A stretch of 64,000 nucleotides of DNA from Tulanevirus 60ahydrpp (Duplodnaviria; Heunggongvirae; Uroviricota; Caudoviricetes; Straboviridae). Each line of letters starts with the position of its first letter. The stretch's first letter is position 1. The position numbers and the translations under genes are program-made. The DNA lies in IMG/VR virus record IMGVR_UViG_2974724359_000001, positions 19,795 through 83,794 of that record. One strand, written 5' to 3'. A model generated the notes under the pieces. The model saw only the letters and a program-made list of their open reading frames with translations, ran no database searches and was not told where the DNA came from. Below, in pieces: positions 17,894 to 42,261 of the stretch.

Positions 17894-17914
17894 TTTCATT
17901 GCGAGAAATATATT

Positions 17915-18494: not shown

Positions 18495-18500
18495 AACAAT

Positions 18501-18684: not shown

Positions 18685-18756
18685 GAATGACGAGTGTACG
18701 GCCAAGCACGCCACCTTTTAGGCGCCGGAGGACAGGTTCGAGTCCTGTATCATTCA
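18685..18756 (+). ncRNA. tRNA-like gene with 4 bp anticodon stem and 8 nt loop (ACCTTTTA)
   Basis: acceptor gaatgac/atcattc, D-arm gtgt/gcac, perfect T-arm acagg-ttcgagt-cctgt; anticodon region cgcc-acctttta-ggcg. Confidence 0.4.
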
Positions 18757-18785
18757 CTGCAAATTAGTTTCAAGTAATCATTGGT

Positions 18786-18860
18786 GTGACCTTAGTAGTA
18801 ATGGTAGCTATCCTGGATGTGACCCAGGGAGTACGGGTTCGAACCCCGTAGGTCACCCCA
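18786..18860 (+). tRNA. tRNA-His(GTG)
   Basis: acceptor gtgacct/aggtcac + C + CCA; cctgg-atGTGac-ccagg; GGGTTCGAACCCC. Confidence 0.75.
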
Positions 18861-18872
18861 ATGATTATTTTC

Positions 18873-18948
18873 GCGATATTAGCTCAGTTGGTAGAGCTTC
18901 TGATTTCCAATCAGAATGTCATCGGTTCGAGACCGATATATCGCTCCA
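18873..18948 (+). tRNA. tRNA-Gly(TCC)
   Basis: acceptor gcgatat/atatcgc + T + CCA; tctga-ttTCCaa-tcaga; D-arm agctcagttggtagagc. Confidence 0.8.
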
Positions 18949-19193
18949 AACACAAGTCACAGGGCTCTAGATTCCTAGTCAGTTTCGCACCCCTGGTTGA
19001 TGCACTGTCCATTATTGCGCCGTGACTGGAGCCCGCGAGTTGGACAACCGTATTGTCTCCGGCACTTAGATGACCGGCTTTAACAAGAGAAATCGGGAGA
19101 CGTCCCGTAAAATCCTCGGACAGAACTTTAGTAGTCACTCCCGTCATTTTGCGCGGTGAAACGAGGAAGTATAGACGGGGTAACGAATTCAAT

Positions 19194-19271
19194 CCGTGTG
19201 TAGGCTAGTCAGGTTAGGTCGTCTGGTTTGGGGCCAGAAAGTCGAAGGTTCGAATCCTTCCACACGGACCA
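19194..19271 (+). tRNA. tRNA-Pro(TGG)
   Basis: acceptor ccgtgtg/cacacgg + A + CCA; tctgg-ttTGGgg-ccaga; GGTTCGAATCC. Confidence 0.7.
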
Positions 19272-19547
19272 AATTACGTAAGCGGATACTTGGTTGCAAA
19301 CAAGTCCGTAAAGTCGTCGAATGTGGTAACATCCTCTCCTGGCACTATCCCAGTGATGCGGTTATCCAGAACGGCGCAAACTGAAGAATTGAGTCACATC
19401 CGTAAGGCCCTGACTCCAATTCTTCAAACACTCTTGTTTATGTGGCGGTCGAGACATCCCCACGTTAAAAACTGAAATCTCGATGTCCCGAGCTGCAGCG
19501 TTAGGGAAGAGTGTTTGAAGAATTGAACTAATGAGAAGAAATATATT

Positions 19548-20099
19548 ATGCAGATGACATTAACAAGACAGCATCACGCAGGCGAAATGCAATCATTCAT
19601 CGACGGTTCAATGACTGAAATCGATGCGATTTATGGATATGCGGATTTTTTATTCGAACGTAAGAAGAAAAAGCGAGCATCGCCATATATCAGTAATACA
19701 ATTCCAGCAATTCAAGCTTTTGCAGAATCTTTTGAGCAATCGATTGCTAGTTACTGCAAATACGCTTTTGCTAATAATATACGCTGCAAATGTGGTTACT
19801 TTTATATTATTTCAAATCCATCTTTTCCCGAAATGTATAAACTAGGCTTTTCGTTGGATTGCGTTGACAGACTTAAACAATATCAAACATATTGTCCGGC
19901 ACGCGATTTTAAGTTGGAATTCTATCTTGCTGTATCTAACGCTCGTCAAGTTGAACGACTTGTTATGCATATTCTAGGAGAACGAATGCAAAATGAGTGG
20001 TTTAAATCCACTGATATACGCGGCGACTGGAAAATGTTAACAAAAGAAATTGCACTTAATACCCGTGAGAACAATCGTTTTTATTATAAGCCAATTTAG
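19548..20099 (+). CDS. T5orf172 / GIY-YIG-like domain protein
   Basis: 183 aa; GYFYIISNPSFPEMYKLGFSLDCVDRLKQY matches the T5orf172 signature (GyvYvlsNp...KIG.T); embedded in tRNA cluster; 3' end overlaps tRNA-Thr by 10 nt. Confidence 0.55.
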   Translation: MQMTLTRQHHAGEMQSFIDGSMTEIDAIYGYADFLFERKKKKRASPYISNTIPAIQAFAESFEQSIASYCKYAFANNIRCKCGYFYIISNPSFPEMYKLGFSLDCVDRLKQYQTYCPARDFKLEFYLAVSNARQVERLVMHILGERMQNEWFKSTDIRGDWKMLTKEIALNTRENNRFYYKPI

Positions 20100-20164
20100 C
20101 ACAGCGGTAGTGCAACGTACCTGTAATACGTAGGTCGTCAGTTCGAATCTGACAATTGGCTCCA
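20090..20164 (+). tRNA. tRNA-Thr(TGT) with C33
   Basis: acceptor gccaatt/aattggc + T + CCA; acgta-ccTGTaa-tacgt; GTTCGAATC. Confidence 0.6.
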
Positions 20165-20187
20165 AATTTTTAAATGAGGAAAATATT

Positions 20188-20373
20188 ATGTTATTTGCTT
20201 ATCAAGTTATTGCTGTTATCTTCTTTATTTGCTCTTTCTTGGGCGATTACAAGCGATATTCAGACTCCCCTTCCGAAATTGCGGGTAATTTGATTGGCTC
20301 TGTTTTTGCCGGTGCTTTGTGGCCATTGACGGTACTTATCCATATTTTTTGTATCTCAAAACTCAATCGCTAA
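20188..20373 (+). CDS. small membrane protein
   Basis: 61 aa, two hydrophobic helices, RBS gaggaaaatattATG. Confidence 0.5.
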   Translation: MLFAYQVIAVIFFICSFLGDYKRYSDSPSEIAGNLIGSVFAGALWPLTVLIHIFCISKLNR

Positions 20374-20530
20374 ATAAATACAAAGGAACGGACTTCTTCG
20401 GACCCGTTCGTTAAGTAAAAAAGGGAAGACCATCTAGATATGACGAGGACGTCGGTCTGTATCATATCTAGCTGGCCCTTGGCCTCCGACGAGGTTTTGT
20501 CTGGAAGTGGTGCGCCCAGATCGTTTCAAT

Positions 20531-20606
20531 ATGACATTGGTGTTAGCGGTAGCATGCCGGTCTCCAAAACCGTGCGGCCAGGGTTCGAATCCTTGATGTC
20601 ATGCCA
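20531..20606 (+). tRNA. tRNA-Trp(CCA)
   Basis: acceptor atgacat/atgtcat (A1-U72 as in E. coli tRNA-Trp) + G + CCA; loop ctCCAaa; GGTTCGAATCC. Confidence 0.7.
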
Positions 20607-20608
20607 AT

Positions 20609-20684
20609 AGTGGATTAGCTCAGTAGGTAGAGCACTCGACCGATAATCGAGAGTGCATTGGTTCGATCCCAATATCCACTACCA
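20609..20684 (+). tRNA. tRNA-Ile(GAT) with C33
   Basis: acceptor agtggat/atccact + A + CCA; ctcga-ccGATaa-tcgag; D-arm agctcagtaggtagagc. Confidence 0.7.
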
Positions 20685-20691
20685 AATTCTA

Positions 20692-20779
20692 GGAGAAGTG
20701 GATGAGCGGCTGAAATCGCTTCCCTGCTAAGGAAGTAAACCGAAAGGTTTCGAGAGTTCGAATCTCTCCTTCTCCGCCA
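20692..20779 (+). tRNA. tRNA-Ser(GCT)
   Basis: acceptor ggagaag/cttctcc + G + CCA; cttcc-ctGCTaa-ggaag; long variable arm; GTTCGAATC. Confidence 0.8.
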
Positions 20780-20787
20780 AATGCATC

Positions 20788-20829
20788 CTGAAGCATATTG
20801 TTTAAAACTTCCCAACAAGTGATATTATT
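20788..20829 (+). promoter_or_regulatory. tRNA-cluster promoter copy 3
   Basis: ctgaagcatattGTTTAAA-17-TATTAT. Confidence 0.5.
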
Positions 20830-20856
20830 AACTCATACCAAAACAGAGTTTAGAGC

Positions 20857-20929
20857 GGAGCCATAGTTTATTTGGTTAAAATAGTCCCCTGTCACGGGTC
20901 AGCACCGAGTTCGATCCTCGGTGGCTCCG
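20857..20929 (+). tRNA. tRNA-Asp(GTC), CCA not encoded
   Basis: acceptor ggagcca/tggctcc + G; gtccc-ctGTCac-gggtc (one mismatch); GAGTTCGATCCTC. Confidence 0.65.
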
Positions 20930-20942
20930 CTCTAAATTTTGA

Positions 20943-21016
20943 TGTTACGTAACTCAGTCGGTTAGAGTCTGGGCCATAACGCCCCGGAGACGTAGGTTCG
21001 AGTCCTACCGTAACAA
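20943..21016 (+). ncRNA. tRNA-like gene, anticodon arm irregular (loop cataacg, possibly CAT-derived)
   Basis: acceptor tgttacg/cgtaaca, D-arm actc/gagt, T-arm gtagg-ttcgagt-cctac; anticodon stem tgggc/gcccc with C-C mismatch. Confidence 0.4.
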
Positions 21017-21025
21017 CCTAATTGA

Positions 21026-21102
21026 TGCGATGTAGAGGAGAGGTCGTCCTCGTCGGGCTCATATCCCGAAAATCGGTGGTTCGAATCCACCCATCGCTTC
21101 CA
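21026..21102 (+). tRNA. tRNA-Met(CAT), initiator-like (unpaired 1-72, three G-C pairs in anticodon stem)
   Basis: acceptor tgcgatg/catcgct (T1-T72 mismatch) + T + CCA; tcggg-ctCATat-cccga; GGTTCGAATCC. Confidence 0.65.
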
Positions 21103-21304
21103 ATTTCAATCGCTTGTTGAACGTGGGAAAATAGCAAAATATGGGAAAGGGTCGCGAACCGGAACCTTAAAGTAGCTTTCTAAGTACTTGTTGTCTGGCA
21201 GTTCACACATACGTATATTTGTGATGGGTTCGAGACCCTAACAAGCGCCCGAATAACAACGCCAGTGACTAATCGAATGATCGTTACCGGCTTTTTCATC
21301 TGAC

Positions 21305-21379
21305 GGCCCTGTAGCTAGACGGTTCAAGCAGGCGGCTCATAACCGCTCGTAGTAGGTTCGATTCCTACCAGGGTCACCA
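21305..21379 (+). tRNA. tRNA-Met/Ile2(CAT), elongator type
   Basis: acceptor ggccctg/cagggtc + A + CCA; ggcgg-ctCATaa-ccgct; GGTTCGATTCC. Confidence 0.7.
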
Positions 21380-21383
21380 ATTT

Positions 21384-21461
21384 GGGTTCTTCGTTTAATG
21401 GGAAGACCGTAGGTTGCTTTGCATCCTGATGATGCTATTTCGATACTAGCAGAACCCACCA
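21384..21461 (+). ncRNA. degenerate tRNA-like element with CCA end
   Basis: acceptor gggttct/agaaccc + A + CCA and TTCGATA T-loop, but no convincing D-arm; anticodon arm aggtt-gcTTTgc-atcct. Confidence 0.3.
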
Positions 21462-21477
21462 ATTTGAGGAAAATACT

Positions 21478-21927
21478 ATGGATATCGGATCCGGCGCGTC
21501 TTGGCCATCATGTGCATTGAGTAATTTTGCTCCACATGAATTCGTTATCGATGGGATTAGATGTTCCTCAATGGAAGGATTCCTTCAGTCTCTCAAATTC
21601 AAATCGCCTGAAATGCAAGAATACGTTTGCACTCTGGTTGGTAAAGCCGCCAAATTTAAAGGCAAAAAGAAAAACTGGTGGAGAGATCAAACTCTGTACT
21701 GGAAAGGTAAACCGATGCGGCGGCAAAGCGATGCTTATTCTGATTTAATCTGCCGAGCATATGACGAAATTGCGAAGAATTCCGGATTTCAACGGGCAAT
21801 CCTAGCCACCCGGAATTCTTCGTTAACTCATTCAATGGGTAAAAGCAAAAAGAATGAAACAGTGTTAACTGAACAAGAATTTTGTTCAAATCTGTATCGT
21901 ATCCGAGATAAACTTCAAGCCGCTTAA
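21478..21927 (+). CDS. NADAR (YbiA-like) domain protein
   Basis: 149 aa; SNFAPHEF..DGIRCSSMEGFLQSLKF matches the NADAR/YbiA signature (SNF...DG...S.EH.fQA.KF). Confidence 0.6.
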   Translation: MDIGSGASWPSCALSNFAPHEFVIDGIRCSSMEGFLQSLKFKSPEMQEYVCTLVGKAAKFKGKKKNWWRDQTLYWKGKPMRRQSDAYSDLICRAYDEIAKNSGFQRAILATRNSSLTHSMGKSKKNETVLTEQEFCSNLYRIRDKLQAA

Positions 21928-21940
21928 TTGCGGCTTTTTA
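21917..21940 (+). terminator. rho-independent terminator
   Basis: aagccgcttaattgcggcttttta. Confidence 0.7.
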
Positions 21941-21947
21941 GTCAAAT

Positions 21948-22024
21948 GGTCTCTTAGCTCAGCTGGATAGAGCAGCGGCCTTCTAAGCCGCGGGTCATTG
22001 GTTCGAATCCAATAGGGACTGCCA
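21948..22024 (+). tRNA. tRNA-Arg(TCT)
   Basis: acceptor ggtctct/agggact (two G-U) + G + CCA; gcggc-ctTCTaa-gccgc; D-arm agctcagctggatagagc. Confidence 0.75.
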
Positions 22025-27922: not shown

Positions 27923-27924
27923 AA

Positions 27925-27964
27925 GTGTAAATTTGATGAGACTATGATACGATAGTCTCATCAA
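27925..27964 (+). promoter_or_regulatory. promoter with palindrome (PeSL-like variant)
   Basis: GTGTAAA -35, TACGAT -10, inverted repeat TTGATGAGACTAT / ATAGTCTCATCAA. Confidence 0.45.
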
Positions 27965-27986
27965 ATAAACCATCCAAGGAAATCCA

Positions 27987-28219: not shown

Positions 28220-28251
28220 GTTGATGAGACCTTGGTATAATTGTCTCATCA
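28220..28251 (+). promoter_or_regulatory. extended -10 promoter inside palindrome
   Basis: TTGATGAGAC-cttgGTATAATt-GTCTCATCAA. Confidence 0.4.
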
Positions 28252-28528
28252 AATGAAAACACGCGGAGTATTAATTATGCATTACATCATCAACAAAAAC
28301 GGTATCGCCTTTGTTGTTTCGCTGGAAGGTTTTGATATTTCCAAAATCGATGGGAAAACCTTTTCCAGCCTATATGATATGAACCTTGAAATGCACGAGG
28401 AGTGTATCGGTTTCGAATATCTCGTAACACGAGAAGCTCCTGATTCACCGGTCATGATGTACACACAATACAGTGGCGAAATCGTGAAAATCGAACCTGA
28501 GCGTTTCATCAACGAATTTGTTTTGTGA
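28241..28528 (+). CDS. hypothetical protein
   Basis: 95 aa ORF. Confidence 0.45.
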   Translation: MSHQMKTRGVLIMHYIINKNGIAFVVSLEGFDISKIDGKTFSSLYDMNLEMHEECIGFEYLVTREAPDSPVMMYTQYSGEIVKIEPERFINEFVL

Positions 28529-30631: not shown

Positions 30632-31207
30632 ATGGCAAGTCTTCATTTTCACTATGCTGCAATGAATTCCGGTAAAAGCACTCATTTACTTCAAGTAGCC
30701 CACAATTACGAAGAACGTGGTATGCGTGCTATTATCATAAAGCCTGCAATTGACACACGTGATGGCGCAACAGTATCCTCGCGAATTGGTCTATCACGGC
30801 CTGCTATTATGGTGAGGCAAAGCGACAGTTTGACAGCCTTGATCGACAAAGAGCATAGCAGGCAGCGCATTAGTTGTGTGTTAGTAGATGAAGCGCAATT
30901 TCTGCTTCCAGAACAAGTCAGTCAGCTCGCATCGGTCGTAGATGAATTAGACATTCCAGTAATGTGCTATGGGCTGTTGTCTGATTCAAACGGTAACATG
31001 TTTCCTGCAGCAGAACGACTGGTAGTTTTAGCAGAAGAAAAGGTTGAACACAAAACCATATGTTGGTGTGGCACCAAAGCTACAATGAACATGAGAATCG
31101 ACGAAAATGGCAAGAAGGTGTGGGGCCCAAGTGTTTCGATAGGTGGCAATGATCGCTATATTTCAGTGTGTCGTAAACACTGGAACATGGGAAAATCTTC
31201 AAAATAA
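30632..31207 (+). CDS. tk: thymidine kinase
   Basis: 191 aa; MASLHFHYAAMNSGKST, LVDEAQFL, VMCYGL, CWCG...VCRKHW align with T4 Tk. Confidence 0.9.
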   Translation: MASLHFHYAAMNSGKSTHLLQVAHNYEERGMRAIIIKPAIDTRDGATVSSRIGLSRPAIMVRQSDSLTALIDKEHSRQRISCVLVDEAQFLLPEQVSQLASVVDELDIPVMCYGLLSDSNGNMFPAAERLVVLAEEKVEHKTICWCGTKATMNMRIDENGKKVWGPSVSIGGNDRYISVCRKHWNMGKSSK

Positions 31208-31281: not shown

Positions 31282-31545
31282 ATGAAAAGTTCTGATGTTT
31301 TTGCCCAAGTTCAACTTGCCCAAGCTTTTGCCACTGAAGAGTTGAAACGCAAATTAGCTCCTGTTGGAAAATTCGTTGCCGACGAAATGATTTCCAAACG
31401 AGTTTTTACAATCACCTTCGCAGGCGATAAATTCCCTGGAATTTACACCAGAGATATCGTCGACTATCTAAGAACTCTTGGATATGAGACTCGCACCGAA
31501 TCTCACCGTAATGAAAGCTATATCACCGTAACTGCAAAACCCTAA
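31282..31545 (+). CDS. hypothetical protein
   Basis: 87 aa ORF, preceded by GTTTACA / TATAAAAT promoter-like sequence with GAGGCC/GGCCTC inverted repeat. Confidence 0.5.
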   Translation: MKSSDVFAQVQLAQAFATEELKRKLAPVGKFVADEMISKRVFTITFAGDKFPGIYTRDIVDYLRTLGYETRTESHRNESYITVTAKP

Positions 31546-31565
31546 TTCAATCAAAAGGAAATATA

Positions 31566-32489
31566 ATGCGTACTATGTCCAAAACTCCGAAAATTACCAA
31601 GAAAATGGGCCTTTCTATCGCAGCCGGTCTGCTGGCCGCAATTACTGCCCTGAATATCTTTACTGTGGTCGATGATGGCTCTGTTGCAACTGCCACTTTC
31701 CTTGGTAAAGTTAGCCCAAATATCATGCAGCCCGGCCTGAACATCATCAATCCGTTGGCATCAGTTGATACCTATTCAACTCGTGATCTGAAGATGGAAT
31801 TCTCAAACGTACAAGTTCCTTCTCAAGATAAACTGAAAACTTCTGTCGATATCACTCTGATGCTGCGATTCGACGGTGATAAAGCCCAAATGGTTCGTAT
31901 CAATGGCGGTACCGAACGCCAAGCCATTGACAAGTACGTCGCGAAGAAATTCGAGAGTACCGTTCGCGAATCTGGTAAAAACATCAAGAAAGCACAAGAT
32001 CTGTTTGGCGATGCAAAGACCCAATCCATGCTGCAAGACATGATCAAAACTGAAGTCAATGACTATTCCAAGCCGTTTGGTTATGAAGTAACTGAAGTAT
32101 TCCTGCAAGAAATTACTCTGCCGAAGCTGATTCAAGACCAGGTTGAGCAAACCAAAATTCGCGAAGAAGCCGTAAACCAGGCCCAAGCGGATCTGGATAA
32201 AGCTGAAAAAGTGGCACAACAGCAGGTTAAGACAGCCGAAGCTGCGCGTGAAGCTCGTGAACAAAACGCTGTTGCCAACGAACGTGACGCTGATGCTAAA
32301 CTGTATGCCGCCGGTAAAGAAGCTGAAGCTAACGTTCTGCTGCAGAAAACCATTACTCCTGAAATGATCAAATGGCGCCAGCTGGAAGTCGAAATGATTC
32401 GTGCCAACAAATATCAAGGCGGTGTACCACAGACTGTGGTCGGCGCTGGTTATGACGGCCAAATGCTGATGGACATGCGTTCCAAGTAA
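31566..32489 (+). CDS. SPFH/band-7 (prohibitin/stomatin-like) membrane protein
   Basis: 307 aa; N-terminal TM segment, SPFH core (IINPLASVDTYSTRDLKMEFSNVQVPSQDKLKTSVDITLMLRFD), C-terminal Ala/Glu-rich coiled coil. Confidence 0.65.
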   Translation: MRTMSKTPKITKKMGLSIAAGLLAAITALNIFTVVDDGSVATATFLGKVSPNIMQPGLNIINPLASVDTYSTRDLKMEFSNVQVPSQDKLKTSVDITLMLRFDGDKAQMVRINGGTERQAIDKYVAKKFESTVRESGKNIKKAQDLFGDAKTQSMLQDMIKTEVNDYSKPFGYEVTEVFLQEITLPKLIQDQVEQTKIREEAVNQAQADLDKAEKVAQQQVKTAEAAREAREQNAVANERDADAKLYAAGKEAEANVLLQKTITPEMIKWRQLEVEMIRANKYQGGVPQTVVGAGYDGQMLMDMRSK

Positions 32490-32496
32490 TTTAACT

Positions 32497-32521
32497 CGGG
32501 CTCCTTCGGGAGCCCATTTTG
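32497..32521 (+). terminator. rho-independent terminator
   Basis: cgggctccttcgggagcccattttg. Confidence 0.8.
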
Positions 32522-32539
32522 ATAAGATAACTTGTTAAA

Positions 32540-32779
32540 TTGGAATATATTATGTTTAGCCGTGGTTTTACTTTAATCGAATTGATGGTATTAGTGGCGA
32601 TTGTTATTATTCTGTTAGCCATAGCAATACCGGCTTTTTCGGATAACGAAATTTATAATCCGATCGATTCAGCATGCCCTCATGGGTTAACAACCGCAAT
32701 TACGCCAAATGGCGAAGAAATTCTTGTTTGCCGAAAAAATCAAGTGATCAATAAACAAACACTAACAATCGGAGAATAA
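32540..32779 (+). CDS. type IV pilin / pseudopilin-like protein (prepilin-type N-terminal domain)
   Basis: 79 aa; leader ...MFSRG then FTLIELMVLVAIVIILLAIAIPAF (class III signal, Glu5), two Cys downstream. Confidence 0.65.
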   Translation: MEYIMFSRGFTLIELMVLVAIVIILLAIAIPAFSDNEIYNPIDSACPHGLTTAITPNGEEILVCRKNQVINKQTLTIGE

Positions 32780-33388
32780 ATGCAAAAGCAACTCAAAATG
32801 GGCATCATGGCGGCATTCGTAGCAGCAGCACTTTCTGGTTGTGGCGAGCAACAGTCTGATACATTTTCTTATAATGGTCTCGGTGGAGAACCTATGCCTA
32901 CCGTCACCGCGACTTCGGCAGAGCAATGTCAAGAACTGGGTGGTGGTTCGACGGAACAATGCCAACTAGCGTTTAAGCAAGCAAAGGATGAACATATTTC
33001 AGCTGCACCAAAATTCAATGACCAAACATCATGTGAATCTGGCACAGGTGCTGTATGCACCCAAACACAAATTCAGAATTCCGATGGCAGTTTCAGCGAC
33101 GTGTTCGTTCCAGCTATGGTTGGTATGATTGTTGGCCAACTGATGTCAAGCAATGCTCGCCCGATGCCAGTATATGCGCCAAGCCGACCCGAAGATCGTC
33201 GAAATGGCTTCGTCACTGCGAATGGTTCCTACGTTCCTCCTGGAAAAGGTTCTATCGGTGCAAACACTTTCAAAACTTCCTTCGGCAAGGGAAGTTTTGC
33301 CAAACCGGTAGCATCTTCTAAACCTGTGGTGAGAATGTCATCTGGCGGTTTCGGAAAATCCGGTGGCTTCGGCTCTTCCGGTGGTTAA
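32780..33388 (+). CDS. lipoprotein with Gly-rich C-terminus
   Basis: 202 aa; lipobox AALSGC; Cys-rich middle; C-terminal SSGGFGKSGGFGSSGG; ATG abuts pilin-like stop (taaATG). Confidence 0.6.
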   Translation: MQKQLKMGIMAAFVAAALSGCGEQQSDTFSYNGLGGEPMPTVTATSAEQCQELGGGSTEQCQLAFKQAKDEHISAAPKFNDQTSCESGTGAVCTQTQIQNSDGSFSDVFVPAMVGMIVGQLMSSNARPMPVYAPSRPEDRRNGFVTANGSYVPPGKGSIGANTFKTSFGKGSFAKPVASSKPVVRMSSGGFGKSGGFGSSGG

Positions 33389-33400
33389 TTTCAAAAAGCG

Positions 33401-33442
33401 GTTTACAGCGATGGGACTATGATTTACTATAGTCCCATCAAA
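33401..33442 (+). promoter_or_regulatory. PeSL-like promoter/palindrome cassette 2
   Basis: GTTTACA-17-TACTAT with CGATGGGACTAT / ATAGTCCCATCAAA inverted repeat; downstream leader aaggagtacatcATG identical to copy at 40623. Confidence 0.6.
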
Positions 33443-33459
33443 TCAGCAAGGAGTACATC

Positions 33460-33690
33460 ATGATTTATGTTGGTCAAAAATATCGAATTACCACCCCTGT
33501 GAATTCTTGCCACATCGTTGGGGTTGGTGACATTATTGAAATCACTGAATTATCTTGGTATGGTGTGCGTTCAATGGATATTTCGGTTGATATCGAAGGA
33601 AATTCATATAACGGCATCCTGATGTTTGAAGGACCGTACACTGTCGCGGAATATTGGGAAAAGGTCGAAATGTGCTTGGAGGCTGTTTAA
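33460..33690 (+). CDS. small protein, paralogue A of pair upstream of ATP-grasp gene
   Basis: 76 aa; MIYVGQKYRIT...HIVGVGDIIEITE. Confidence 0.5.
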   Translation: MIYVGQKYRITTPVNSCHIVGVGDIIEITELSWYGVRSMDISVDIEGNSYNGILMFEGPYTVAEYWEKVEMCLEAV

Positions 33691-33939
33691 ATGATTGACG
33701 GAATTTATCGGATTGTTGGTGAAATCTCTACGAACCATCGCCGCATTAGTCAAGGCGACGAGATTTATTTGAAAGAAGATGAATACGGAAATATTCGCGG
33801 TCCAGCAGTTGACTGGGAAGGGCGTGAAACTGAAATTGGTTACATTTTGTGCCCAGACACATTGGAAAAAATTCCCGGCAAAACTGACCAAGAAGCTTAC
33901 CGAATTTGGATTGACACCGTTTTGGAGAAAGTAGAATGA
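33691..33939 (+). CDS. small protein, paralogue B
   Basis: 82 aa; MIDGIYRIVGE...HRRISQGDEIYLKE, same YRI...H...GD(I/E)I pattern. Confidence 0.5.
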   Translation: MIDGIYRIVGEISTNHRRISQGDEIYLKEDEYGNIRGPAVDWEGRETEIGYILCPDTLEKIPGKTDQEAYRIWIDTVLEKVE

Positions 33940-35132
33940 AACGCGTATCTATTGAAGCTCGTAAAGATTGGTTGCCACAGTTGACTTCCGAAGGTGTTTT
34001 GTGGACCACTACTGAAGAAGGTCCTTATTGGGCCGAAGCGATGGTTCAGCCTAAATATTACTCTTTCACTCGTGCAGAACAAGAGCAACTCGAGAAAGCT
34101 GCAAACGAAATCCATGAAATGTGTCTTGAGACAATGGAATGGCTGTTCACCCGCGACGCCAAAAAGCAAAACGAAATTTTCAACATGTTCAATATCCCAT
34201 ATGATTCTCGCGATCAAATCATGCGCAGTTGGGAAGATGATGAATGGGGCCTTTATGGGCGGTTTGATTTCATCATGACCGAAAACGGACCCAAGCTTCT
34301 CGAATATAATGCTGATACCCCCACCATTCTCATCGAATCTGCAATTTCTCAATGGAATTGGTTCAACGATCAACGTGAAAAATTCCATCAAGAAGCTTTT
34401 CAATTTAACGAAATTCATGAAGCGTTGGTTAATCACTGGCGTGATATGAGCACTTATAACGCAATTGGTGATAAAATCAGCTTTGTAGCTACTACGCAAG
34501 TTGATGATTTTGCTACAATCGCATATATGGCTGAAACTGCTTCTGAAGCAGGACTGAATGTCAAAATGTTTGATATCGCTGAAATTCAGCTTGGTGATGA
34601 CAGTAATTTTTATGACATTGAAGGCCAACATATCGACACTTGCTTCAAATTGTATCCATGGGAATGGCTGTATGAAGACGATTTTGGCAAAGCCATTGGT
34701 TGGAGCAACACTCGATTTATTGAACCAACTTGGAAAATGATGCTTTCCAACAAAGCACTTTTGGTTCTTCTTTATGAGCGTTATCCTAACTGTGAATGGT
34801 TGGTTCCAGCGTATATGGAAGATGATTTTGATCGATTGAATCTGTTCACTTATGAAAATCCGAAATGGGTGTCAAAGCCTCTTCTTTCTCGCGAAGGTTG
34901 CAATGTTCATATTTTTGAATATGGTGGAGAAAGTGAATTCACCGATGGCAATTACGCAGAAGAACCGCGTATCGTCCAGAAATATATCGAATGGAAAGAT
35001 TTCGATGGTTGCTACCCAATGCTTGGCGTATGGATGGTAGGTAGCGATGCCGTGGGTTTGGGTATCAGAGAAGATGATAGCCGAATTACCGGTAATAACA
35101 GTCGATTTATTCCACATGTAGTAGAAAATTGA
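33936..35132 (+). CDS. glutathionylspermidine synthetase-like ATP-grasp ligase
   Basis: 398 aa; YGRFDFIMTENGPKLLEYNADTPTILIE matches the GSP-synthetase family core. Confidence 0.65.
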   Translation: MKRVSIEARKDWLPQLTSEGVLWTTTEEGPYWAEAMVQPKYYSFTRAEQEQLEKAANEIHEMCLETMEWLFTRDAKKQNEIFNMFNIPYDSRDQIMRSWEDDEWGLYGRFDFIMTENGPKLLEYNADTPTILIESAISQWNWFNDQREKFHQEAFQFNEIHEALVNHWRDMSTYNAIGDKISFVATTQVDDFATIAYMAETASEAGLNVKMFDIAEIQLGDDSNFYDIEGQHIDTCFKLYPWEWLYEDDFGKAIGWSNTRFIEPTWKMMLSNKALLVLLYERYPNCEWLVPAYMEDDFDRLNLFTYENPKWVSKPLLSREGCNVHIFEYGGESEFTDGNYAEEPRIVQKYIEWKDFDGCYPMLGVWMVGSDAVGLGIREDDSRITGNNSRFIPHVVEN

Positions 35133-35312
35133 CAAACTGCAGATGATTTAAACCCTCCATAATGCGTTAAATATGATAGGAGATAAAGCCACGGATTGGC
35201 CAGATGCCTTGTCATATTGGTTAAACCAGTATGCGGTAACGACAAAGGCATCAAATAGGCTTTTTGCCTTTGTTTAATACCATCAAGGAGGGGCCAATGG
35301 CCCATTTGTCGT

Positions 35313-35591
35313 ATGTTAAAAACATTTTCAATAATCGCATTGGTTTTAGCTTCAATGCACTTTGTAGAGGCGGACCCTGAAAGTGGGTCTTATGATGAGT
35401 ACATGCGTGGCGCTTTAATAGTGTATAGCAACGAAATAGTGCCATCTCTAGATAATTCGGTTGAATTTCTTGAGCATTTGAACGATAAATGGAAATCTGC
35501 TAAATGCTCTTCGAGTTGTTATCAAACTGGATATCTTGAAGCAAAGACATTCATAGCAAAGAGAGAAGGTCATGGAAGTAAGATTCGGTGA
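35313..35591 (+). CDS. small secreted protein
   Basis: 92 aa, signal-like MLKTFSIIALVLASMHFVEA. Confidence 0.45.
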   Translation: MLKTFSIIALVLASMHFVEADPESGSYDEYMRGALIVYSNEIVPSLDNSVEFLEHLNDKWKSAKCSSSCYQTGYLEAKTFIAKREGHGSKIR

Positions 35592-35952
35592 TGTTGTAAC
35601 CGAGAAAACAAGCATTTTTGATGAGTTTATTGGTGCGTGTTTAATGTCAAGCACATATGCGCATTCCGCGCACTTTATGACAAAGTCGTATGAAAAGCAT
35701 ATAGCATACGAATATTTCTATGACAATATGCCAGGGTTGATTGATATTTTCGCTGAATCATATATGGGTTCAGGATTTACGTATCGACCTCGACTGACCA
35801 TTTACAGCGGAACCTTTGAGTCATTTGTCAACGAACTTGCCCAGATGGCGGAAAAGGTATCTGCCAGTGCACCTAATACGGTTCTCAAAAACACCTCAGA
35901 TGATATCCAAGAGCTTTGTCGTATGACAATGTATAAACTATCATTGCACTAA
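35572..35952 (+). CDS. hypothetical protein
   Basis: 126 aa ORF. Confidence 0.5.
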   Translation: MEVRFGDVVTEKTSIFDEFIGACLMSSTYAHSAHFMTKSYEKHIAYEYFYDNMPGLIDIFAESYMGSGFTYRPRLTIYSGTFESFVNELAQMAEKVSASAPNTVLKNTSDDIQELCRMTMYKLSLH

Positions 35953-37509: not shown

Positions 37510-37743
37510 ATGAAATCTACAGCTTTAGCGTATGTTCTTTGGTTTTTTCTGGGTGTTTTTGGTATTCACCGTTTCTACACCAGAAATTACGTCACCGGAG
37601 TTATTTGGTTTTTTACTTGCGGTTTGTTTGGTCTTGGCTGGTTTGTCGACTTGTTTATCACGGCAGGATTAGTTCGACGCGCCAACATTGAATGGCGCCA
37701 AAATCAGATAGAAATTAATACAATGATTCGTCGAGGTTATTGA
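37510..37743 (+). CDS. TM2 domain membrane protein
   Basis: 77 aa; WFFLGVFGIHRFY...GLGWFVDL. Confidence 0.55.
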   Translation: MKSTALAYVLWFFLGVFGIHRFYTRNYVTGVIWFFTCGLFGLGWFVDLFITAGLVRRANIEWRQNQIEINTMIRRGY

Positions 37744-37744: not shown

Positions 37745-38803
37745 ATGGTTTATAATTATGATCGTGCTGTTGTTATTGGCCGCTTTTCCAGCTTTTTCCA
37801 CCGTGGACATGAAATGCTGATTTACAAAGCGCTTCAAACTGCTGAAACTGTTGCTGTTGTCTTCGGGTCATCCCATTGTTATCCAAACACAGTCAACCCG
37901 CTTCCGACGCCGATTCGAATCAGGATGTTCAAAGAATGGATGAGTAACAATCTCACTCCTAGCGAACAAGCCAGAATTGTTTTCGGCAATGTTCCTGACT
38001 ACCGTTATAATGAAGATCGCTGGCAAACAGAAGTTCGTGAGGCCGCGCAAGAGCAACCGGGCGAGCGTGTTGCGATGATTGCATACGATAAGGATGAAGA
38101 TTCTTATTGGATCAAAACCTTTGGATGGGACCATATTCAATGCATGGGCGTTCAGAATCACGGAAAAGACATCTCAAATACCCCAATGCGCGATGAATTT
38201 CTTCGAACCGGTTCTATCCACGACGATTTCCCTATCAATCCGTCAGTGCGGTCATTTCTTTTGAAATTTTGGAATACTGAAGGTTCCGAAATACGCAGCC
38301 GGTTGATGGAAGAACGTGCGATGTGGGACAATGAACTTGCAAAGTTTAAAGATTACCCATACGCTGATGCTCTCAACTGCAATACTGCTGATGCCGTAGT
38401 AACGTGCAACAACCATATTCTGGTTATTAGCCGCAAACATGCACCAGGCAAAGGTGCTCTTGCTCTTCCAGGTGGTCACAAGAATTCCAATGAGACCTTC
38501 CGCGATTGTGCAATTCGCGAATTGTATGAAGAAGTTCGGATTGATGTCGATCGTCAAAAAATCATTGGGTCTATAAAAGCACACGAAGTATTTGATCACC
38601 CAAAGAGAACAGCAGAGTTCTGCAAACCAACGGTTGCTTATTATATCGTACTTCAACCCAATGACGATGGTAGTTTGCCTGAAGTCCGTGCTGATGATGA
38701 TGCAAAAGCAGCATTTTGGATGCCAATGCATGAATACAAGAGAAATCGGGCACGTATGTTTGACGATCATGCTGAAATCATTTCACGCTTCACCGGTATC
38801 TAG
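37745..38803 (+). CDS. natV: bifunctional NMN adenylyltransferase / Nudix hydrolase (NatV-like)
   Basis: 352 aa; N-terminal (H/T)xGH nucleotidyltransferase motif GRFSSFFHRGHEML; C-terminal Nudix box GGHKNSNETFRDCAIRELYEEVRI. Confidence 0.75.
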   Translation: MVYNYDRAVVIGRFSSFFHRGHEMLIYKALQTAETVAVVFGSSHCYPNTVNPLPTPIRIRMFKEWMSNNLTPSEQARIVFGNVPDYRYNEDRWQTEVREAAQEQPGERVAMIAYDKDEDSYWIKTFGWDHIQCMGVQNHGKDISNTPMRDEFLRTGSIHDDFPINPSVRSFLLKFWNTEGSEIRSRLMEERAMWDNELAKFKDYPYADALNCNTADAVVTCNNHILVISRKHAPGKGALALPGGHKNSNETFRDCAIRELYEEVRIDVDRQKIIGSIKAHEVFDHPKRTAEFCKPTVAYYIVLQPNDDGSLPEVRADDDAKAAFWMPMHEYKRNRARMFDDHAEIISRFTGI

Positions 38804-40338: not shown

Positions 40339-40583
40339 TGAAATTGATTCGCTTTAAATTCAAAAGTAAGGAAATGCTGACCGAGTATACTACTCGGTTC
40401 AGACGCCATATTTGGGCAGTAGGTTTCAGCGCAAACACAGTTTTTATTGCCAGAATCAACAAACGTGGCCAAGTCAAAAGTATTTTTGATGGTAAAACTC
40501 TTAAAGAACTTGTTTCTTCGAAAGAAGGTTGGCTTCCTTTTGCCTCCTTTGAGTTTGAAAAGTTTTGTGAAAAAGTAGACTAA
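40338..40583 (+). CDS. small protein, RFKS-family paralogue 3
   Basis: 81 aa; MKLIRFKFKSKEMLTEY. Confidence 0.5.
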   Translation: MKLIRFKFKSKEMLTEYTTRFRRHIWAVGFSANTVFIARINKRGQVKSIFDGKTLKELVSSKEGWLPFASFEFEKFCEKVD

Positions 40584-40586
40584 ACA

Positions 40587-40628
40587 GTTTACATCGATGG
40601 GACTATGATTTACTATAGTCCCATCAAA
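40587..40628 (+). promoter_or_regulatory. PeSL-like promoter/palindrome cassette 3
   Basis: GTTTACA-17-TACTAT with CGATGGGACTAT / ATAGTCCCATCAAA; 40 of 42 nt identical to 33401-33442. Confidence 0.6.
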
Positions 40629-40646
40629 TCAACTAAGGAGTACATC

Positions 40647-41520: not shown

Positions 41521-42188
41521 GTGGAAAATCTACCCTTCGTTCTCAACGTAAACACCAGCGCCGACGTCACAACGACATTGCTCATGTTCGCAATTTTTTG
41601 AACACCTTACAATCCGAGCAGCATGATCGCGATTGGCTCAATCTGGTTTGCAAAATGTTCAATGTTAAAACAATGGTGAAATGGGATAATACGTATCAAA
41701 AAACAGCCAGGATTCCGGCGTGGTTTTGGTACAAAATTGACCGAATTATGAGAGAAAACCATATTCCATGGTGTAAAGCCAACACTGGTATAGCCATATA
41801 CATGCATGAGAGAGGCGTCTCGCGAGTTGGCGAGTTGGCGTTTTCTACCGACAAAGGCGTATTGATGCTCGCACGGCTTCTTGAAATTGAAGTTCATTCC
41901 TCTGGTATGAATTTAGTTTTGCCGGTGTTGAATCGCTATCGGAACCGTCGGAATACCGAACTTCGCACGAAAATGGTTCATCCTAAGCCTGAAAACATTC
42001 ATTATGCGACTACCGAAGAGATTGATAGCATGAGAGATGCTATTAGCATTGATAAAATGTTAAAAGAAATCCCAGCACTCGAGTCACGAATCAGCGCTCT
42101 TTCTCGCGAACTTGCCCAATTGCAAGATAAACTCCAAAATACACGACAAGATGTCCGCGATTATCTTTCGAAAAAGTATGGTATTTGA
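41517..42188 (+). CDS. hypothetical protein with C-terminal coiled coil
   Basis: 223 aa ORF. Confidence 0.5.
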   Translation: MSGKSTLRSQRKHQRRRHNDIAHVRNFLNTLQSEQHDRDWLNLVCKMFNVKTMVKWDNTYQKTARIPAWFWYKIDRIMRENHIPWCKANTGIAIYMHERGVSRVGELAFSTDKGVLMLARLLEIEVHSSGMNLVLPVLNRYRNRRNTELRTKMVHPKPENIHYATTEEIDSMRDAISIDKMLKEIPALESRISALSRELAQLQDKLQNTRQDVRDYLSKKYGI

Positions 42189-42199
42189 TTGAAAAGTTA

Positions 42200-42240
42200 G
42201 TGTACAGTGATGGGAACATTGGTTATAATGTTCCCATCAA
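42200..42240 (+). promoter_or_regulatory. PeSL-like promoter/palindrome cassette 4 (variant arms)
   Basis: GTGTACA-17-TATAAT with GTGATGGGAACAT / ATGTTCCCATCAA; leader acggagtaatttaaATG identical to 15484-15502. Confidence 0.55.
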
Positions 42241-42261
42241 TAAACGAACGGAGTAATTTAA

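What the first reader, a model, noticed from the sequence alone, without database searches (positions are those of the whole stretch)
33460..35132. Two paralogous small ORFs followed by a glutathionylspermidine-synthetase-like ATP-grasp ligase
ORFs of 76 and 82 aa share the pattern M-I-x3-YRI-x6-H-x3-GD-(I/E)-I-x-(I/L)-x-E and are clearly duplicates. The overlapping downstream gene encodes a 398-aa YgiC/YjfC/GSP-synthetase-like ATP-grasp enzyme (YGRFDFIMTENGPKLLEYNADTPT). ATP-grasp ligases placed next to small duplicated substrates or partners are the architecture of peptide or amine ligation systems, such as RiPP-like systems and polyamine or glutathione conjugation. The whole unit has its own PeSL-like promoter. 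A role in modifying a small protein, or in rewiring host polyamine/glutathione pools, is plausible and untested.
Basis: partly seen in the sequence, partly recalled or inferred. Interest (0 to 1): 0.7.

Follow-up and report, generated by a model that had tools for sequence, protein, structure and literature searches.

The report
Phage polyamine ligase; shuffled small genes
An Aeromonas T4-like phage carries a bacterial-type peptide–polyamine ligase whose conserved partner is the membrane lipoprotein gene just upstream; the two small genes in front of the ligase look like interchangeable cassette cargo, so this is a modestly interesting, mostly explained locus.

Summary
The window is Aeromonas phage 60AhydR15PP.

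- **Small ORFs.** ORF A (76 aa) and ORF B (82 aa) are real coding genes. They are SH3-like and are at best distant paralogues, not clear duplicates. The sequence evidence is weak (p about 0.01), but a fold search with the A model retrieves B.
- **Ligase.** The 398-aa enzyme is a YgiC/YjfC-type peptide–spermidine ligase. It is not a glutathionylspermidine synthetase.
- **Promoter.** The PeSL element is real and occurs in four copies in the window.

- A and B occur without the ligase in 23 phage records.
- The ligase occurs without A or B in phage 25, the Lahexavirus phages, the sampled Acinetobacter phage and 80 bacterial loci.
- The ORFs between the PeSL and the ligase differ from phage to phage.

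The conserved partner is the DUF1190 lipoprotein gene (32780-33388). It pairs with the ligase in E. coli (ygiB-ygiC, yjfM-yjfC), in 54 of 80 bacterial loci and in three phage lineages.

I infer, but have not shown, that the position-constrained Gly-Gly C-terminus of DUF1190 is the ligase's acyl substrate.

Verdict: new member of a known kind, moderate to low interest.

The parts
32780..33388 (+). DUF1190 lipoprotein gene (202 aa), a YgiB/YjfM homologue and the conserved partner of the ligase. It has a lipobox (LSGC), an acidic domain with four Cys, a Met/Gly-rich hydrophobic segment (VFVPAMVGMIVGQLM), and a basic tail ending GGFGSSGG.
   Evidence: Pfam PF06693 at 6.5e-22. Sequence and hydropathy. 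Family-wide features. Adjacent to the ligase in E. coli, in 54 of 80 bacterial loci, and in the Lahexavirus and Acj9 phages.
33389..33455 (+). PeSL-type cassette (early promoter plus stem-loop). The -35 TTTACA is at 33402-33407, the -10 TACTAT at 33425-33430, the 12-bp hairpin at 33410-33439, and the Shine-Dalgarno GGAG lies just before ORF A.
   Evidence: Repeat family D1 has 4 copies in the window. Promoter scan. Fold energy -21.1 kcal/mol, z = -4.6. The same element sits directly after the DUF1190 gene in 44RR, B614 and phage 25, and the window copy at 42188 carries compensatory stem changes. PeSL concept from PMC2839356 and PMC4122927.
33460..33690 (+). ORF A (76 aa, PHROG 9779). A small Aeromonas-phage-specific protein with a predicted SH3-like barrel plus C-terminal helix. 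Interpreted as cassette cargo rather than a ligase partner.
   Evidence: Purifying selection. Model and fold hits. Occurs without the ligase.
33691..33939 (+). ORF B (82 aa, PHROG 36056). A small Aeromonas-phage-specific protein with the same predicted fold as A, and a probable distant paralogue. Its stop overlaps the ligase start (ATGA).
   Evidence: Comparison of A with B. Model. Retrieved by the A model in BFVD.
33936..35132 (+). YgiC/YjfC-type ATP-grasp acid-amine (peptide-polyamine) ligase, 398 aa, with no amidase domain. RefSeq annotates it as 'glutathionylspermidine synthase'.
   Evidence: Pfam GSP_synth at 4.6e-117. PDB relatives YgiC 1e-72, YjfC 6e-65 and GspS 4e-19. Conserved motif residues. 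NCBIfam GspSA equivalog not reached, 115 versus 882 bits.
31566..32489 (+). SPFH/Band-7 membrane protein (307 aa). This is a neighbour whose membership of the module is uncertain.
   Evidence: Pfam Band_7 at 3.4e-16. A bacterial operon variant with Band-7 plus DUF1190 plus ATP-grasp is described in PMC11237479. However, the gene persists in GomatiRiver_11 without DUF1190 or the ligase and is listed in other T4-like phages (PMC1524935).
32540..32779 (+). Small protein with a prepilin-type N-terminal methylation motif (79 aa). This is a neighbour whose membership of the module is uncertain.
   Evidence: Pfam N_methyl at 8e-4, below its cut-off. NCBIfam pilin N-termini. Homologues in 44RR, B614 and GomatiRiver_11 score above the cut-off.

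Best explanation
The flagged segment is a PeSL-headed early transcription unit. It lies in the hyperplastic region between tk and rI of a T4-like Aeromonas phage.

Its large gene encodes a YgiC/YjfC-type ATP-grasp acid-amine ligase. By analogy with the family, this enzyme uses ATP to activate a peptide carboxylate and joins it to a polyamine amine such as spermidine.

The ligase's conserved functional partner is not ORF A or ORF B. It is the DUF1190 lipoprotein gene at 32780-33388, immediately upstream of the PeSL. This is the same pairing as in the bacterial ygiB-ygiC and yjfM-yjfC operons.

In this phage lineage a PeSL cassette has been inserted between the two partner genes. The cassette carries interchangeable small ORFs. 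A and B are two such cargo genes. They are small SH3-like early proteins of a wider Aeromonas-phage family, are probably ancient paralogues, and have an unknown, ligase-independent role.

Inferred step, not shown: the acyl substrate of the ligase in vivo is the position-constrained Gly-Gly C-terminus of the basic tail of DUF1190. The charge asymmetry of the protein predicts that this tail is cytoplasmic. The module would then place a polyamine on a membrane-anchored protein and alter the envelope during infection.
For: **Enzyme identity**
- Searches identify the enzyme class.
- RefSeq names YgiC and YjfC 'peptide--spermidine ligase'.
- Their activity and the still-unknown physiological substrate are described in PMC11762307.

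**DUF1190-ligase pairing**
- The two genes are adjacent in E. coli.
- In 54 of 80 bacterial loci from many phyla, DUF1190 lies on the same strand within 3.5 kb. In the 19 upstream cases the two ORFs almost always abut, most often with a 4-nt gap.
- Three phage lineages carry the pair. These are the Aeromonas T4-likes, the Lahexavirus phages (K+ channel, DUF1190, ligase) and Acinetobacter phage Acj9 (SMR transporter, DUF1190, two unrelated small ORFs, ligase).
- Both genes are absent together from GomatiRiver_11.
- Both are truncated together in IME13 and Aes508.
- The bacterial neighbourhood is already described in PMC11237479.

**Small ORFs as shuffled cargo**
- The PeSL sits directly after the DUF1190 gene in four phages.
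- The ORFs between the PeSL and the ligase differ between phages. They are [A,B] in the window, [62 aa, A] in 44RR, [B] in B614, [A, unrelated 54 aa] in a metagenomic phage and [B remnant] in phage 25.
- PeSLs are documented mediators of modular shuffling.
- Half of the records carrying A (23 of 46) lack the ligase.
- No A or B homologue occurs in the 80 bacterial loci.
- The A model also matches other 85-86 aa Aeromonas phage proteins encoded elsewhere in those genomes.

**DUF1190 C-terminus as substrate (inference)**
- 76 of 141 family representatives end in GG, against 4 expected from tail composition. Positions -4 (S), -2 (G) and -1 (G or S) are constrained.
- The domain after the lipobox is net negative in 100% of 125 representatives (mean -7, four Cys).
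- The tail is net positive in 98% of them (mean +7.6, no Cys). A conserved hydrophobic segment lies between the two.
- GspS, the family archetype, acts on the C-terminal Gly carboxylate of glutathione (established knowledge, not tested here).
- YgiC was recovered in an inner-membrane proteome (PMC4858940). This is weak support.
Against: - In 30 of the 32 Aeromonas T4-like records with an intact ligase, either A or B lies between the PeSL and the ligase. In 44RR, B614 and this window it abuts the ligase with an overlapping stop and start. Some lineage-specific cooperation is therefore not excluded.
- The PeSL hairpin separates DUF1190 and the ligase into different transcription units in this phage.
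- DUF1190 carries a lipoprotein signal peptide, and the TolC review PMC11762307 describes E. coli YgiB as a predicted outer-membrane lipoprotein. If the whole protein is exported, a cytoplasmic ATP-dependent ligase cannot reach its C-terminus.
- The internal hydrophobic segment is short (about 15 residues), contains conserved Pro and Gly, and is weak in E. coli YgiB (KD 0.84).
- Both genes also occur singly in phages. DUF1190 occurs alone in Cronobacter and Citrobacter phages. In phiRSL1, no Pfam DUF1190 domain was found in five ligase-flanking ORFs.
- I could not read the primary biochemical paper (Pederick 2023), so its peptide specificity is unknown to me.
Confidence: 0.62

Rival explanations
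1. A and/or B are the protein substrates or obligate specificity partners of the ligase. The ligase would modify them, for example at their conserved C-terminal LE-x-V(E) end, in a RiPP-like or RimK-like tagging system.
For: - A or B is present between the PeSL and the ligase in 30 of 32 Aeromonas T4-like records with an intact ligase.
- The stop and start overlap in the window, in 44RR and in B614.
- Both families have a conserved C-terminus.
Against: - A and B persist without the ligase in 23 records, including A-B pairs in GomatiRiver_11 and AhFM11.
- The ligase is intact without them in phage 25, in the Lahexavirus phages, in Acj9 and in bacteria.
- The ORF abutting the ligase can be an unrelated 54-aa protein.
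- A and B are predicted to be folded SH3-like domains whose last residues form a strand of the fold, not a free tail.
- The ATP-grasp belongs to the GSP_synth family, not to a RiPP-type family.
Confidence: 0.1
2. The ligase acts on a soluble small peptide or metabolite and a polyamine, rewiring cytoplasmic polyamine or peptide pools. DUF1190 would be only a co-regulated envelope sensor or metal-binding lipoprotein, not the substrate.
For: - The in vitro activity of YgiC and YjfC is reported on peptides plus spermidine, and the physiological substrate is unknown (PMC11762307).
- DUF1190 is called a 'metal-chelating lipoprotein' in PMC11237479.
- DUF1190 has a lipoprotein signal peptide.
- Bacterial operons also hold polyamine metabolism genes and transporters.
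- Acj9 has an SMR transporter next to the pair.
Against: - This model does not explain the strong positional constraint on the extreme C-terminus of DUF1190.
- It does not explain the charge asymmetry pointing to a cytoplasmic tail.
- It does not explain why phages repeatedly capture the two genes together.
Confidence: 0.22
3. The enzyme is what the database annotation says, a glutathionylspermidine synthetase that conjugates host glutathione to spermidine.
For: - The RefSeq and GenBank product names and the PHROG description say so.
- The protein belongs to Pfam family GSP_synth.
Against: - It is much closer to YgiC and YjfC (1e-72, 6e-65) than to GspS (4e-19).
- The NCBIfam GspSA equivalog scores 115 bits against a cut-off of 882, and only part of the synthetase half matches. 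There is no amidase domain.
- YgiC lacks GSP synthetase activity according to Sui 2012, as cited in PMC11762307 and PMC12506659.
Confidence: 0.04
4. The ligase takes part in polyamine hypermodification of phage DNA. Distant GSP_synth homologues occur in PhiW-14, Lu11 and phiPMW.
For: tblastn finds distant homologues (25-30% identity over about 75% of the length) in Delftia phage PhiW-14 and in Pseudomonas phages. PMC5587285 notes the gene in these phages with unclear function. That PhiW-14 DNA carries putrescinyl-thymine comes from my own knowledge.
Against: - Those homologues form a different, truncated clade.
- The Aeromonas enzyme is tied to DUF1190 exactly as in bacteria that do not modify DNA.
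- No DNA-modification genes were seen next to it.
Confidence: 0.02

Closest known systems
E. coli YgiB-YgiC and YjfM-YjfC (DUF1190 protein plus peptide-spermidine ligase; structures 7uk8 and 7uk6)
   Same: - The enzyme family is the same, and the whole 398-aa protein aligns (39% identity to YgiC) with the conserved motif residues kept.
- The partner is the same, a DUF1190 protein encoded upstream on the same strand. It has a lipobox, four Cys, a hydrophobic segment, a GGFG motif and a GG end.
   Different: - The pair is carried by a lytic phage.
- The two genes are separated by a PeSL promoter/stem-loop cassette and two phage-specific small ORFs, instead of lying only a few bases apart.
- There is no tolC, and no yjfIJKL (PspA, DUF2491 and DUF350) context.
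- The phage clade is only 37-42% identical to any bacterial homologue found.
Bifunctional glutathionylspermidine synthetase/amidase (GspSA) and trypanothione synthetase
   Same: The ATP-grasp synthetase fold and Pfam family are shared. The chemistry is presumably the same, carboxylate activation followed by amide formation with a polyamine.
   Different: - There is no N-terminal CHAP amidase domain.
- The equivalog score is far below its cut-off.
- The nearest characterised relatives do not make glutathionylspermidine.
PeSL (promoter-early stem-loop) cassettes of T4-type phages RB49/phi1, PST and nt-1
   Same: - It combines a sigma70-like promoter with a stable stem-loop.
- Several near-identical copies lie in a hyperplastic region.
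- It sits next to small ORFs that differ between related phages.
   Different: - The sequence type is specific to Aeromonas phages (GATGGGACTATG ... ATAGTCCCATC).
- The hairpin lies between and over the -35 and -10 boxes and has no U-tract.
- Promoter and terminator activity were not tested here.
Bacterial PspA/CesT or Band-7 operons with K+ channel, DUF350, DUF1190, DUF2491 and a GspS-like ATP-grasp (Ravi et al. 2024, PMC11237479)
   Same: DUF1190 plus ATP-grasp forms the core. A Band-7 gene lies two genes upstream in this phage. In the Lahexavirus phages an Ion_trans_2 K+ channel gene abuts the pair.
   Different: No PspA, DUF350 or DUF2491 was detected among the ORFs scanned here (31282-35952). 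The phage Band-7 and pilin-like genes persist in relatives that lack the pair, so their link may be coincidental.
ATP-grasp RiPP systems (microviridins, omega-ester peptides) and RimK-S6 tailing
   Same: Only the superficial layout is shared, small ORF(s) directly upstream of an ATP-grasp enzyme.
   Different: - The small ORFs are folded SH3-like domains without a leader/core organisation.
- They are not co-inherited with the enzyme.
- The enzyme belongs to a different ATP-grasp family.

Membership tests
YgiC/YjfC-type acid-amine (peptide-spermidine) ligases (Pfam GSP_synth PF03738) | Full-length match to the family model above the curated threshold | tested here: met
   PF03738 at 391.8 bits against a cut-off of 29.3, covering residues 15-396 of 398.
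YgiC/YjfC-type acid-amine (peptide-spermidine) ligases (Pfam GSP_synth PF03738) | Closer to YgiC and YjfC than to GspS or trypanothione synthetase, with a stand-alone synthetase domain | tested here: met
   7uk8 YgiC 1e-72, 7uk6 YjfC 6e-65, TryS 5e-26, GspS 4e-19. No additional domain.
YgiC/YjfC-type acid-amine (peptide-spermidine) ligases (Pfam GSP_synth PF03738) | Conserved ATP-grasp and substrate motif residues retained | tested here: met
   70 columns are invariant across phage, E. coli, Acinetobacter-phage and Ralstonia-phage members. They include R109/D111, E123/N125/D127, FKLYPWE, EPxWK..SNK, K314, REG-N and REDxxxT. Mapping these onto catalytic roles relies on my memory of the GspS structures.
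YgiC/YjfC-type acid-amine (peptide-spermidine) ligases (Pfam GSP_synth PF03738) | Gene adjacent to a DUF1190 (YgiB/YjfM) gene | tested here: met
   The DUF1190 gene ends 547 nt upstream on the same strand, separated by the PeSL and ORFs A and B. Compare E. coli and 54 of 80 bacterial loci.
YgiC/YjfC-type acid-amine (peptide-spermidine) ligases (Pfam GSP_synth PF03738) | ATP-dependent ligation of a peptide carboxylate to spermidine | not testable with these tools
   This needs enzyme assays. The activity is known only for the E. coli proteins (cited in PMC11762307).
Bifunctional glutathionylspermidine synthetase/amidase (GspSA) | Reaches the NCBIfam equivalog score and has the N-terminal CHAP amidase domain | tested here: not met
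   NF007801 at 115 bits against a cut-off of 882. Only model positions 248-447 of 619 are matched.
RiPP or protein-tagging ATP-grasp system (precursor or substrate ORF plus ligase) | The small ORF is co-inherited with the ligase in relatives | tested here: not met
   A occurs without the ligase in 23 of 46 records. A and B occur together without the ligase in GomatiRiver_11 and AhFM11. The ligase occurs without A or B in phage 25, the Lahexavirus phages, Acj9 and 80 bacterial loci.
RiPP or protein-tagging ATP-grasp system (precursor or substrate ORF plus ligase) | The small ORF looks like a precursor (leader plus core or repeats, largely unstructured), and the enzyme belongs to a RiPP ATP-grasp family | tested here: not met
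   A and B are predicted to be compact SH3-like barrels with a C-terminal helix. The enzyme is GSP_synth.
PeSL regulatory cassette | A sigma70-like promoter joined to a stable stem-loop, present in several copies in hyperplastic regions, next to ORFs that vary between related phages | tested here: met
   Promoter and terminator activity were not tested.
DUF1190 (YgiB/YjfM) family, for the upstream gene | Pfam match above threshold, with lipobox, four Cys, hydrophobic segment, GGFG motif and a small-residue C-terminus | tested here: met
   PF06693 at 79 bits against a cut-off of 22. Features.
A and B as paralogues of one family | Statistically significant sequence or profile similarity | tested here: inconclusive
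   BLASTP E = 0.023. hhalign P = 0.0064 with probability 5.9%. Shuffle p about 0.01. HMMER finds no hit. The fold-level match is positive: B is rank 4 for the A model in BFVD with TM 0.66.

The most novel reading that the evidence does not exclude
The ligase caps the conserved Gly-Gly C-terminus of the DUF1190 membrane protein with spermidine or another polyamine. This would be a previously undescribed protein C-terminal polyamination. It would give YgiC/YjfC their missing physiological substrate, and phages would have captured the pair at least three times to remodel the host envelope during infection. A weaker variant holds that in Aeromonas T4-like phages the SH3-like proteins A and B act as adaptors that retarget this ligase.
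Probability: 0.25. Interest if true: 0.72.

Novelty: new member of a known kind. Interest (0 to 1): 0.35.

Why it matters
The physiological substrate of the widespread YgiC/YjfC peptide-spermidine ligases is still unknown.

Three unrelated phage lineages carry the ligase together with a DUF1190 gene. The DUF1190 family also has a strongly constrained Gly-Gly end on a tail that is probably cytoplasmic. Together these points turn the open question into a concrete experiment: look for a polyamine adduct on the DUF1190 C-terminus.

For phage biology, the locus is a clean example of a bacterial two-gene module split by a PeSL cassette. It shows how such cassettes create misleading apparent operons of small ORFs next to enzymes.

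It also shows that the database label 'glutathionylspermidine synthase' on these phage genes is an over-annotation.

Tried and rejected
- **RiPP-like or substrate role for A and B.** Rejected on co-occurrence and predicted fold.
- **Searches for A and B homologues outside Aeromonas phages.** A search of 5.8 billion proteins found only close phage relatives. Pfam, NCBIfam and PADLOC gave nothing. PHROGs returned only function-unknown families.
- **HMMER profile search of A against B.** No signal.
- **Structure predictions with the wider alignments.** I repeated them with shallower alignments, so the models are only of moderate confidence.
- **afdb50 fold library.** Unavailable.
- **Single-protein scan of bacterial genomes with the ligase.** Found nothing. 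The alignment-based scan worked.
- **Recent host origin.** Not supported. The best bacterial matches are 37-42% identical, come from many phyla, and include no Aeromonas in the top 80.
- **Promoter scan as evidence.** On its own it is not above chance, with 12 sites against 10.1 expected. The PeSL call rests on the repeat family and the hairpin instead.
- **Primary papers.** Pederick 2023, Sui 2012, Dhamdhere 2010 and Iyer 2009 could not be read.
- **Band-7 and pilin-like genes as module members.** Left undecided, because they persist where DUF1190 and the ligase are absent.
Full report
**Where the window comes from**

The region is 100% identical to Aeromonas phage 60AhydR15PP (NC_055747.1), a T4-like phage of the Straboviridae, genus Tulanevirus. 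Window position equals record position minus 19794.

The flagged segment lies in the variable region between tk (30632-31207) and the rI antiholin (35313-35591). The gene order on the + strand is as follows:

| Coordinates | Gene |
|---|---|
| 30632-31207 | tk |
| 31282-31545 | 87-aa ORF |
| 31566-32489 | SPFH/Band-7 protein |
| 32540-32779 | 79-aa protein with a prepilin-type N-terminus |
| 32780-33388 | DUF1190 lipoprotein |
| 33460-33690 | ORF A |
| 33691-33939 | ORF B |
| 33936-35132 | ligase |
| 35313-35591 | rI |

**Checking the observation**

The three ORFs exist exactly as described. A ends one base before B starts, and the B stop overlaps the ligase start in ATGA.

A and B are true genes.
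- For A versus phage 44RR, pN is 0.15 and pS is 0.75.
- For B versus phage B614, dN/dS is 0.31.
- Each has its own PHROG of unknown function.
- Both families are confined to Aeromonas T4-like phages, in the phage collection and in a search of 5.8 billion proteins.

The claim that they are 'clearly duplicates' is too strong.
- BLASTP gives E = 0.023.
- Profile-profile comparison gives P = 0.0064 over a colinear 71-column alignment, with a calibrated probability of only 5.9%.
- A column-shuffle test gives p of about 0.01.
- HMMER profiles do not find one ORF with the other among 706 window ORFs.
- The quoted motif is roughly right but its spacings are not exact.

Structure gives the better argument for distant homology.
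- Both AF2 models (pLDDT 71 and 66) have the same topology.
- A Foldseek search of the A model against viral predicted structures returns ORF B itself at rank 4 (TM 0.66, probability 1.0). The accession A0A2S1PGA1 was verified to be ORF B.
- The same search returns other 85-86 aa Aeromonas phage proteins encoded elsewhere, including phage 31 ORF225c and an AS-szw protein.

A and B therefore belong to a wider family of small phage proteins and are probably old paralogues.

**The promoter**

- The 67 nt at 33389-33455 form one of four copies of a repeat in the window. The others are at 15427, 40575 and 42188.
- The element contains TTTACA-17-TACTAT.
- It contains a 12-bp hairpin with a free energy of -21.1 kcal/mol (z = -4.6). 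None of 200 shuffles folded as well.
- The copy at 42188 keeps the stem through compensatory changes.
- The promoter scan alone is not above chance, with 12 sites against 10.1 expected.

PeSLs (promoter-early stem-loops) are described as regulatory cassettes of T4-type hyperplastic regions. They mediate modular shuffling of small non-essential ORFs (PMC2839356; PMC4122927).

**The ligase**

- It is a full-length GSP_synth protein.
- Its nearest solved relatives are E. coli YgiC (7uk8, 1e-72) and YjfC (7uk6, 6e-65). Trypanothione synthetase (5e-26) and GspS (4e-19) are far behind.
- Seventy columns, including the recognisable motifs, are invariant across six distant members.
- It has no amidase domain. 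It scores 115 bits against the 882-bit cut-off of the GspSA equivalog.
- YgiC and YjfC lack glutathionylspermidine synthetase activity and have peptide-spermidine ligase activity. Their physiological substrate is unknown (PMC11762307; PMC12506659; PMC12568646). RefSeq now names them accordingly.
- The 'glutathionylspermidine synthase' label on the phage gene is therefore an over-annotation. It goes back to the 2006 description of phage 44RR (PMC1524935).

**Are the small ORFs tied to the ligase?**

They are not. The 32 Aeromonas T4-like records with an intact ligase divide as follows:

| Small ORFs present | Records |
|---|---|
| A and B | 14 |
| A only | 9 |
| B only | 7 |
| Only a 3' remnant of B (phage 25) | 2 |

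- A occurs in 46 records, and 23 of them have no ligase.
- GomatiRiver_11 and AhFM11 keep A and B side by side at the same locus, after SPFH and the pilin-like gene and before rI. They lack both DUF1190 and the ligase.
- The phage 65, CC2, Aswh_1 and P19 group has A between goF or a UV endonuclease and frd/td.
- The ORFs between the PeSL and the ligase differ between phages:

| Phage | ORFs between the PeSL and the ligase |
|---|---|
| 60AhydR15PP (this window) | A, B |
| 44RR | unrelated 62-aa ORF, A |
| B614 | B |
| Metagenomic relative (L097) | A, unrelated 54-aa ORF |
| Phage 25 | B remnant only |

- The PeSL sits immediately after the DUF1190 gene in the window, 44RR, B614 and phage 25.
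- None of 80 bacterial ligase loci encodes an A or B homologue.

This pattern is what PeSL-mediated cassette shuffling predicts.

**The conserved partner**

The gene just upstream of the PeSL is a DUF1190 protein.
- In E. coli K-12, ygiB (DUF1190) lies just upstream of ygiC and yjfM (DUF1190) just upstream of yjfC, each separated by only a few bases.
- Among 80 bacterial loci with relatives of the ligase (37-42% identity, many phyla), 54 encode DUF1190 on the same strand within 3.5 kb. In the 19 upstream cases the two ORFs almost always abut, most often with a 4-nt gap.
- The pair recurs in two further phage lineages. The Lahexavirus phages have an Ion_trans_2 K+ channel, DUF1190 and the ligase with nothing in between. 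Acinetobacter phage Acj9 has an SMR transporter, DUF1190, two small ORFs unrelated to A and B, and the ligase.
- GomatiRiver_11 lacks both genes. IME13 and Aes508 carry deletions that remove parts of both.
- The bacterial neighbourhood is already described. It combines PspA/CesT or Band-7, a K+ channel, DUF350, the DUF1190 lipoprotein, DUF2491 and a GspS-like ATP-grasp (PMC11237479).
- The pairing is not absolute in phages. DUF1190 occurs alone in Cronobacter and Citrobacter phages. In phiRSL1, no Pfam DUF1190 domain was found in five ligase-flanking ORFs.
- The phage Band-7 and pilin-like genes may be coincidental neighbours, since they persist where the pair is absent.

**How it most likely works**

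Shown by the evidence above: enzyme class, partner gene, and the cassette nature of A and B.

Inferred: the substrate. Representatives of the DUF1190 family have the following features.
- A lipobox.
- An acidic domain of about 76 residues with exactly four Cys. It is net negative in 100% of 125 sequences (mean -7).
- A conserved Met/Gly-rich hydrophobic segment.
- A basic, Cys-free tail of about 81 residues. It is net positive in 98% of sequences (mean +7.6).
- A constrained extreme C-terminus. Position -4 is S in 57%, position -2 is G in 70%, and position -1 is G in 59% or S in 30%.
- 76 of 141 representatives end in GG, against 4 expected from tail composition.
- The phage protein ends GGFGSSGG, YgiB ends SMGG and YjfM ends HWGG.

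The charge asymmetry is the classic signature of an N-out, C-in membrane protein. The family archetype GspS acts on the C-terminal Gly carboxylate of glutathione (established knowledge, not tested here).

I therefore propose that the ligase amidates the cytoplasmic Gly-Gly end of DUF1190 with a polyamine. I estimate a probability of about 0.25 to 0.3.

The main objections are these.
- DUF1190 has a lipoprotein signal peptide.
- The hydrophobic segment is short and is weak in YgiB.
- I could not read the primary enzymology paper.

The alternative is that the ligase works on a soluble peptide or metabolite and DUF1190 is only a co-regulated envelope protein.

**What A and B do**

Their function is unknown. 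The evidence supports early, PeSL-driven, small SH3-like proteins with a role independent of the ligase.

One observation keeps a lineage-specific adaptor role from being excluded. Thirty of the 32 Aeromonas T4-like records with an intact ligase have A or B between the PeSL and the ligase, and in the loci examined it overlaps the ligase start. I give that model about 0.1.

**Verdict**

The proposed functional link to the small ORFs is not supported.

The locus is a phage copy of a known bacterial two-gene module, interrupted by a known type of mobile regulatory cassette. This makes it a new member of a known kind.

Its main value is that it sharpens a testable hypothesis for the unknown substrate of YgiC/YjfC-type ligases.

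Noticed in passing
window 35313-35591: RefSeq annotates the rI antiholin as a 62-aa protein (record 55197-55385, equal to window 35403-35591). The Pfam Antiholin match covers residues 3-85 of the 92-aa ORF that starts at 35313, so the annotated start is probably too far downstream.
   Followed up: partly
window 11784-11866 and 55536-55618: An 83-nt inverted repeat, 90% complementary, has arms 43.7 kb apart. Direct-repeat families D8 and D9 overlap the same two sites. Its nature is unknown.
   Followed up: no
window 17176-22024: A cluster of 18 tRNA genes lies on the + strand. It includes two tRNA-Lys(ttt), two tRNA-Met(cat), two tRNA-Leu(taa) and two tRNA-Ser genes. Promoter-like repeats (family D3) are interspersed at 17270, 17640 and 20786.
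   Followed up: partly
window 15427-15493, 40575-40641, 42188-42254; also 27924-27971 and 28221-28260: These are further PeSL-type promoter/stem-loop cassettes. A second stem variant (GATGAGACTAT...) occurs as a facing pair 256 nt apart at 27931 and 28221. The pair could bracket a mobile mini-cassette.
   Followed up: partly
L011 (Acinetobacter phage Acj9) 5054-5395: A small multidrug resistance (SMR) transporter gene lies directly upstream of the DUF1190-ligase pair. From my own knowledge, some SMR pairs such as E. coli MdtJI export spermidine, so this may be a polyamine link.
   Followed up: no
L006 (Aeromonas phage LAh_8) 3195-4403: In LAh_8 the ligase gene is annotated as two CDS (339 aa and 59 aa), so it is apparently interrupted. 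It is a single CDS in LAh_6, LAh_9 and 4_4572.
   Followed up: no
window 37745-38803 and 37510-37743: A bifunctional nucleotidyltransferase/NUDIX protein (NadR/NatV-like, annotated as cytidyltransferase) and a TM2-domain membrane protein lie downstream of the locus. With SPFH, the pilin-like protein, DUF1190 and rI, this hyperplastic region is rich in envelope-targeted proteins.
   Followed up: no
HM452125.1 / NC_014635.1 (phage phiAS4) 118614-118842: In phiAS4, ORF A matches in two pieces and is annotated as two hypothetical proteins, so it is probably frameshifted. B and the ligase are intact.
   Followed up: no
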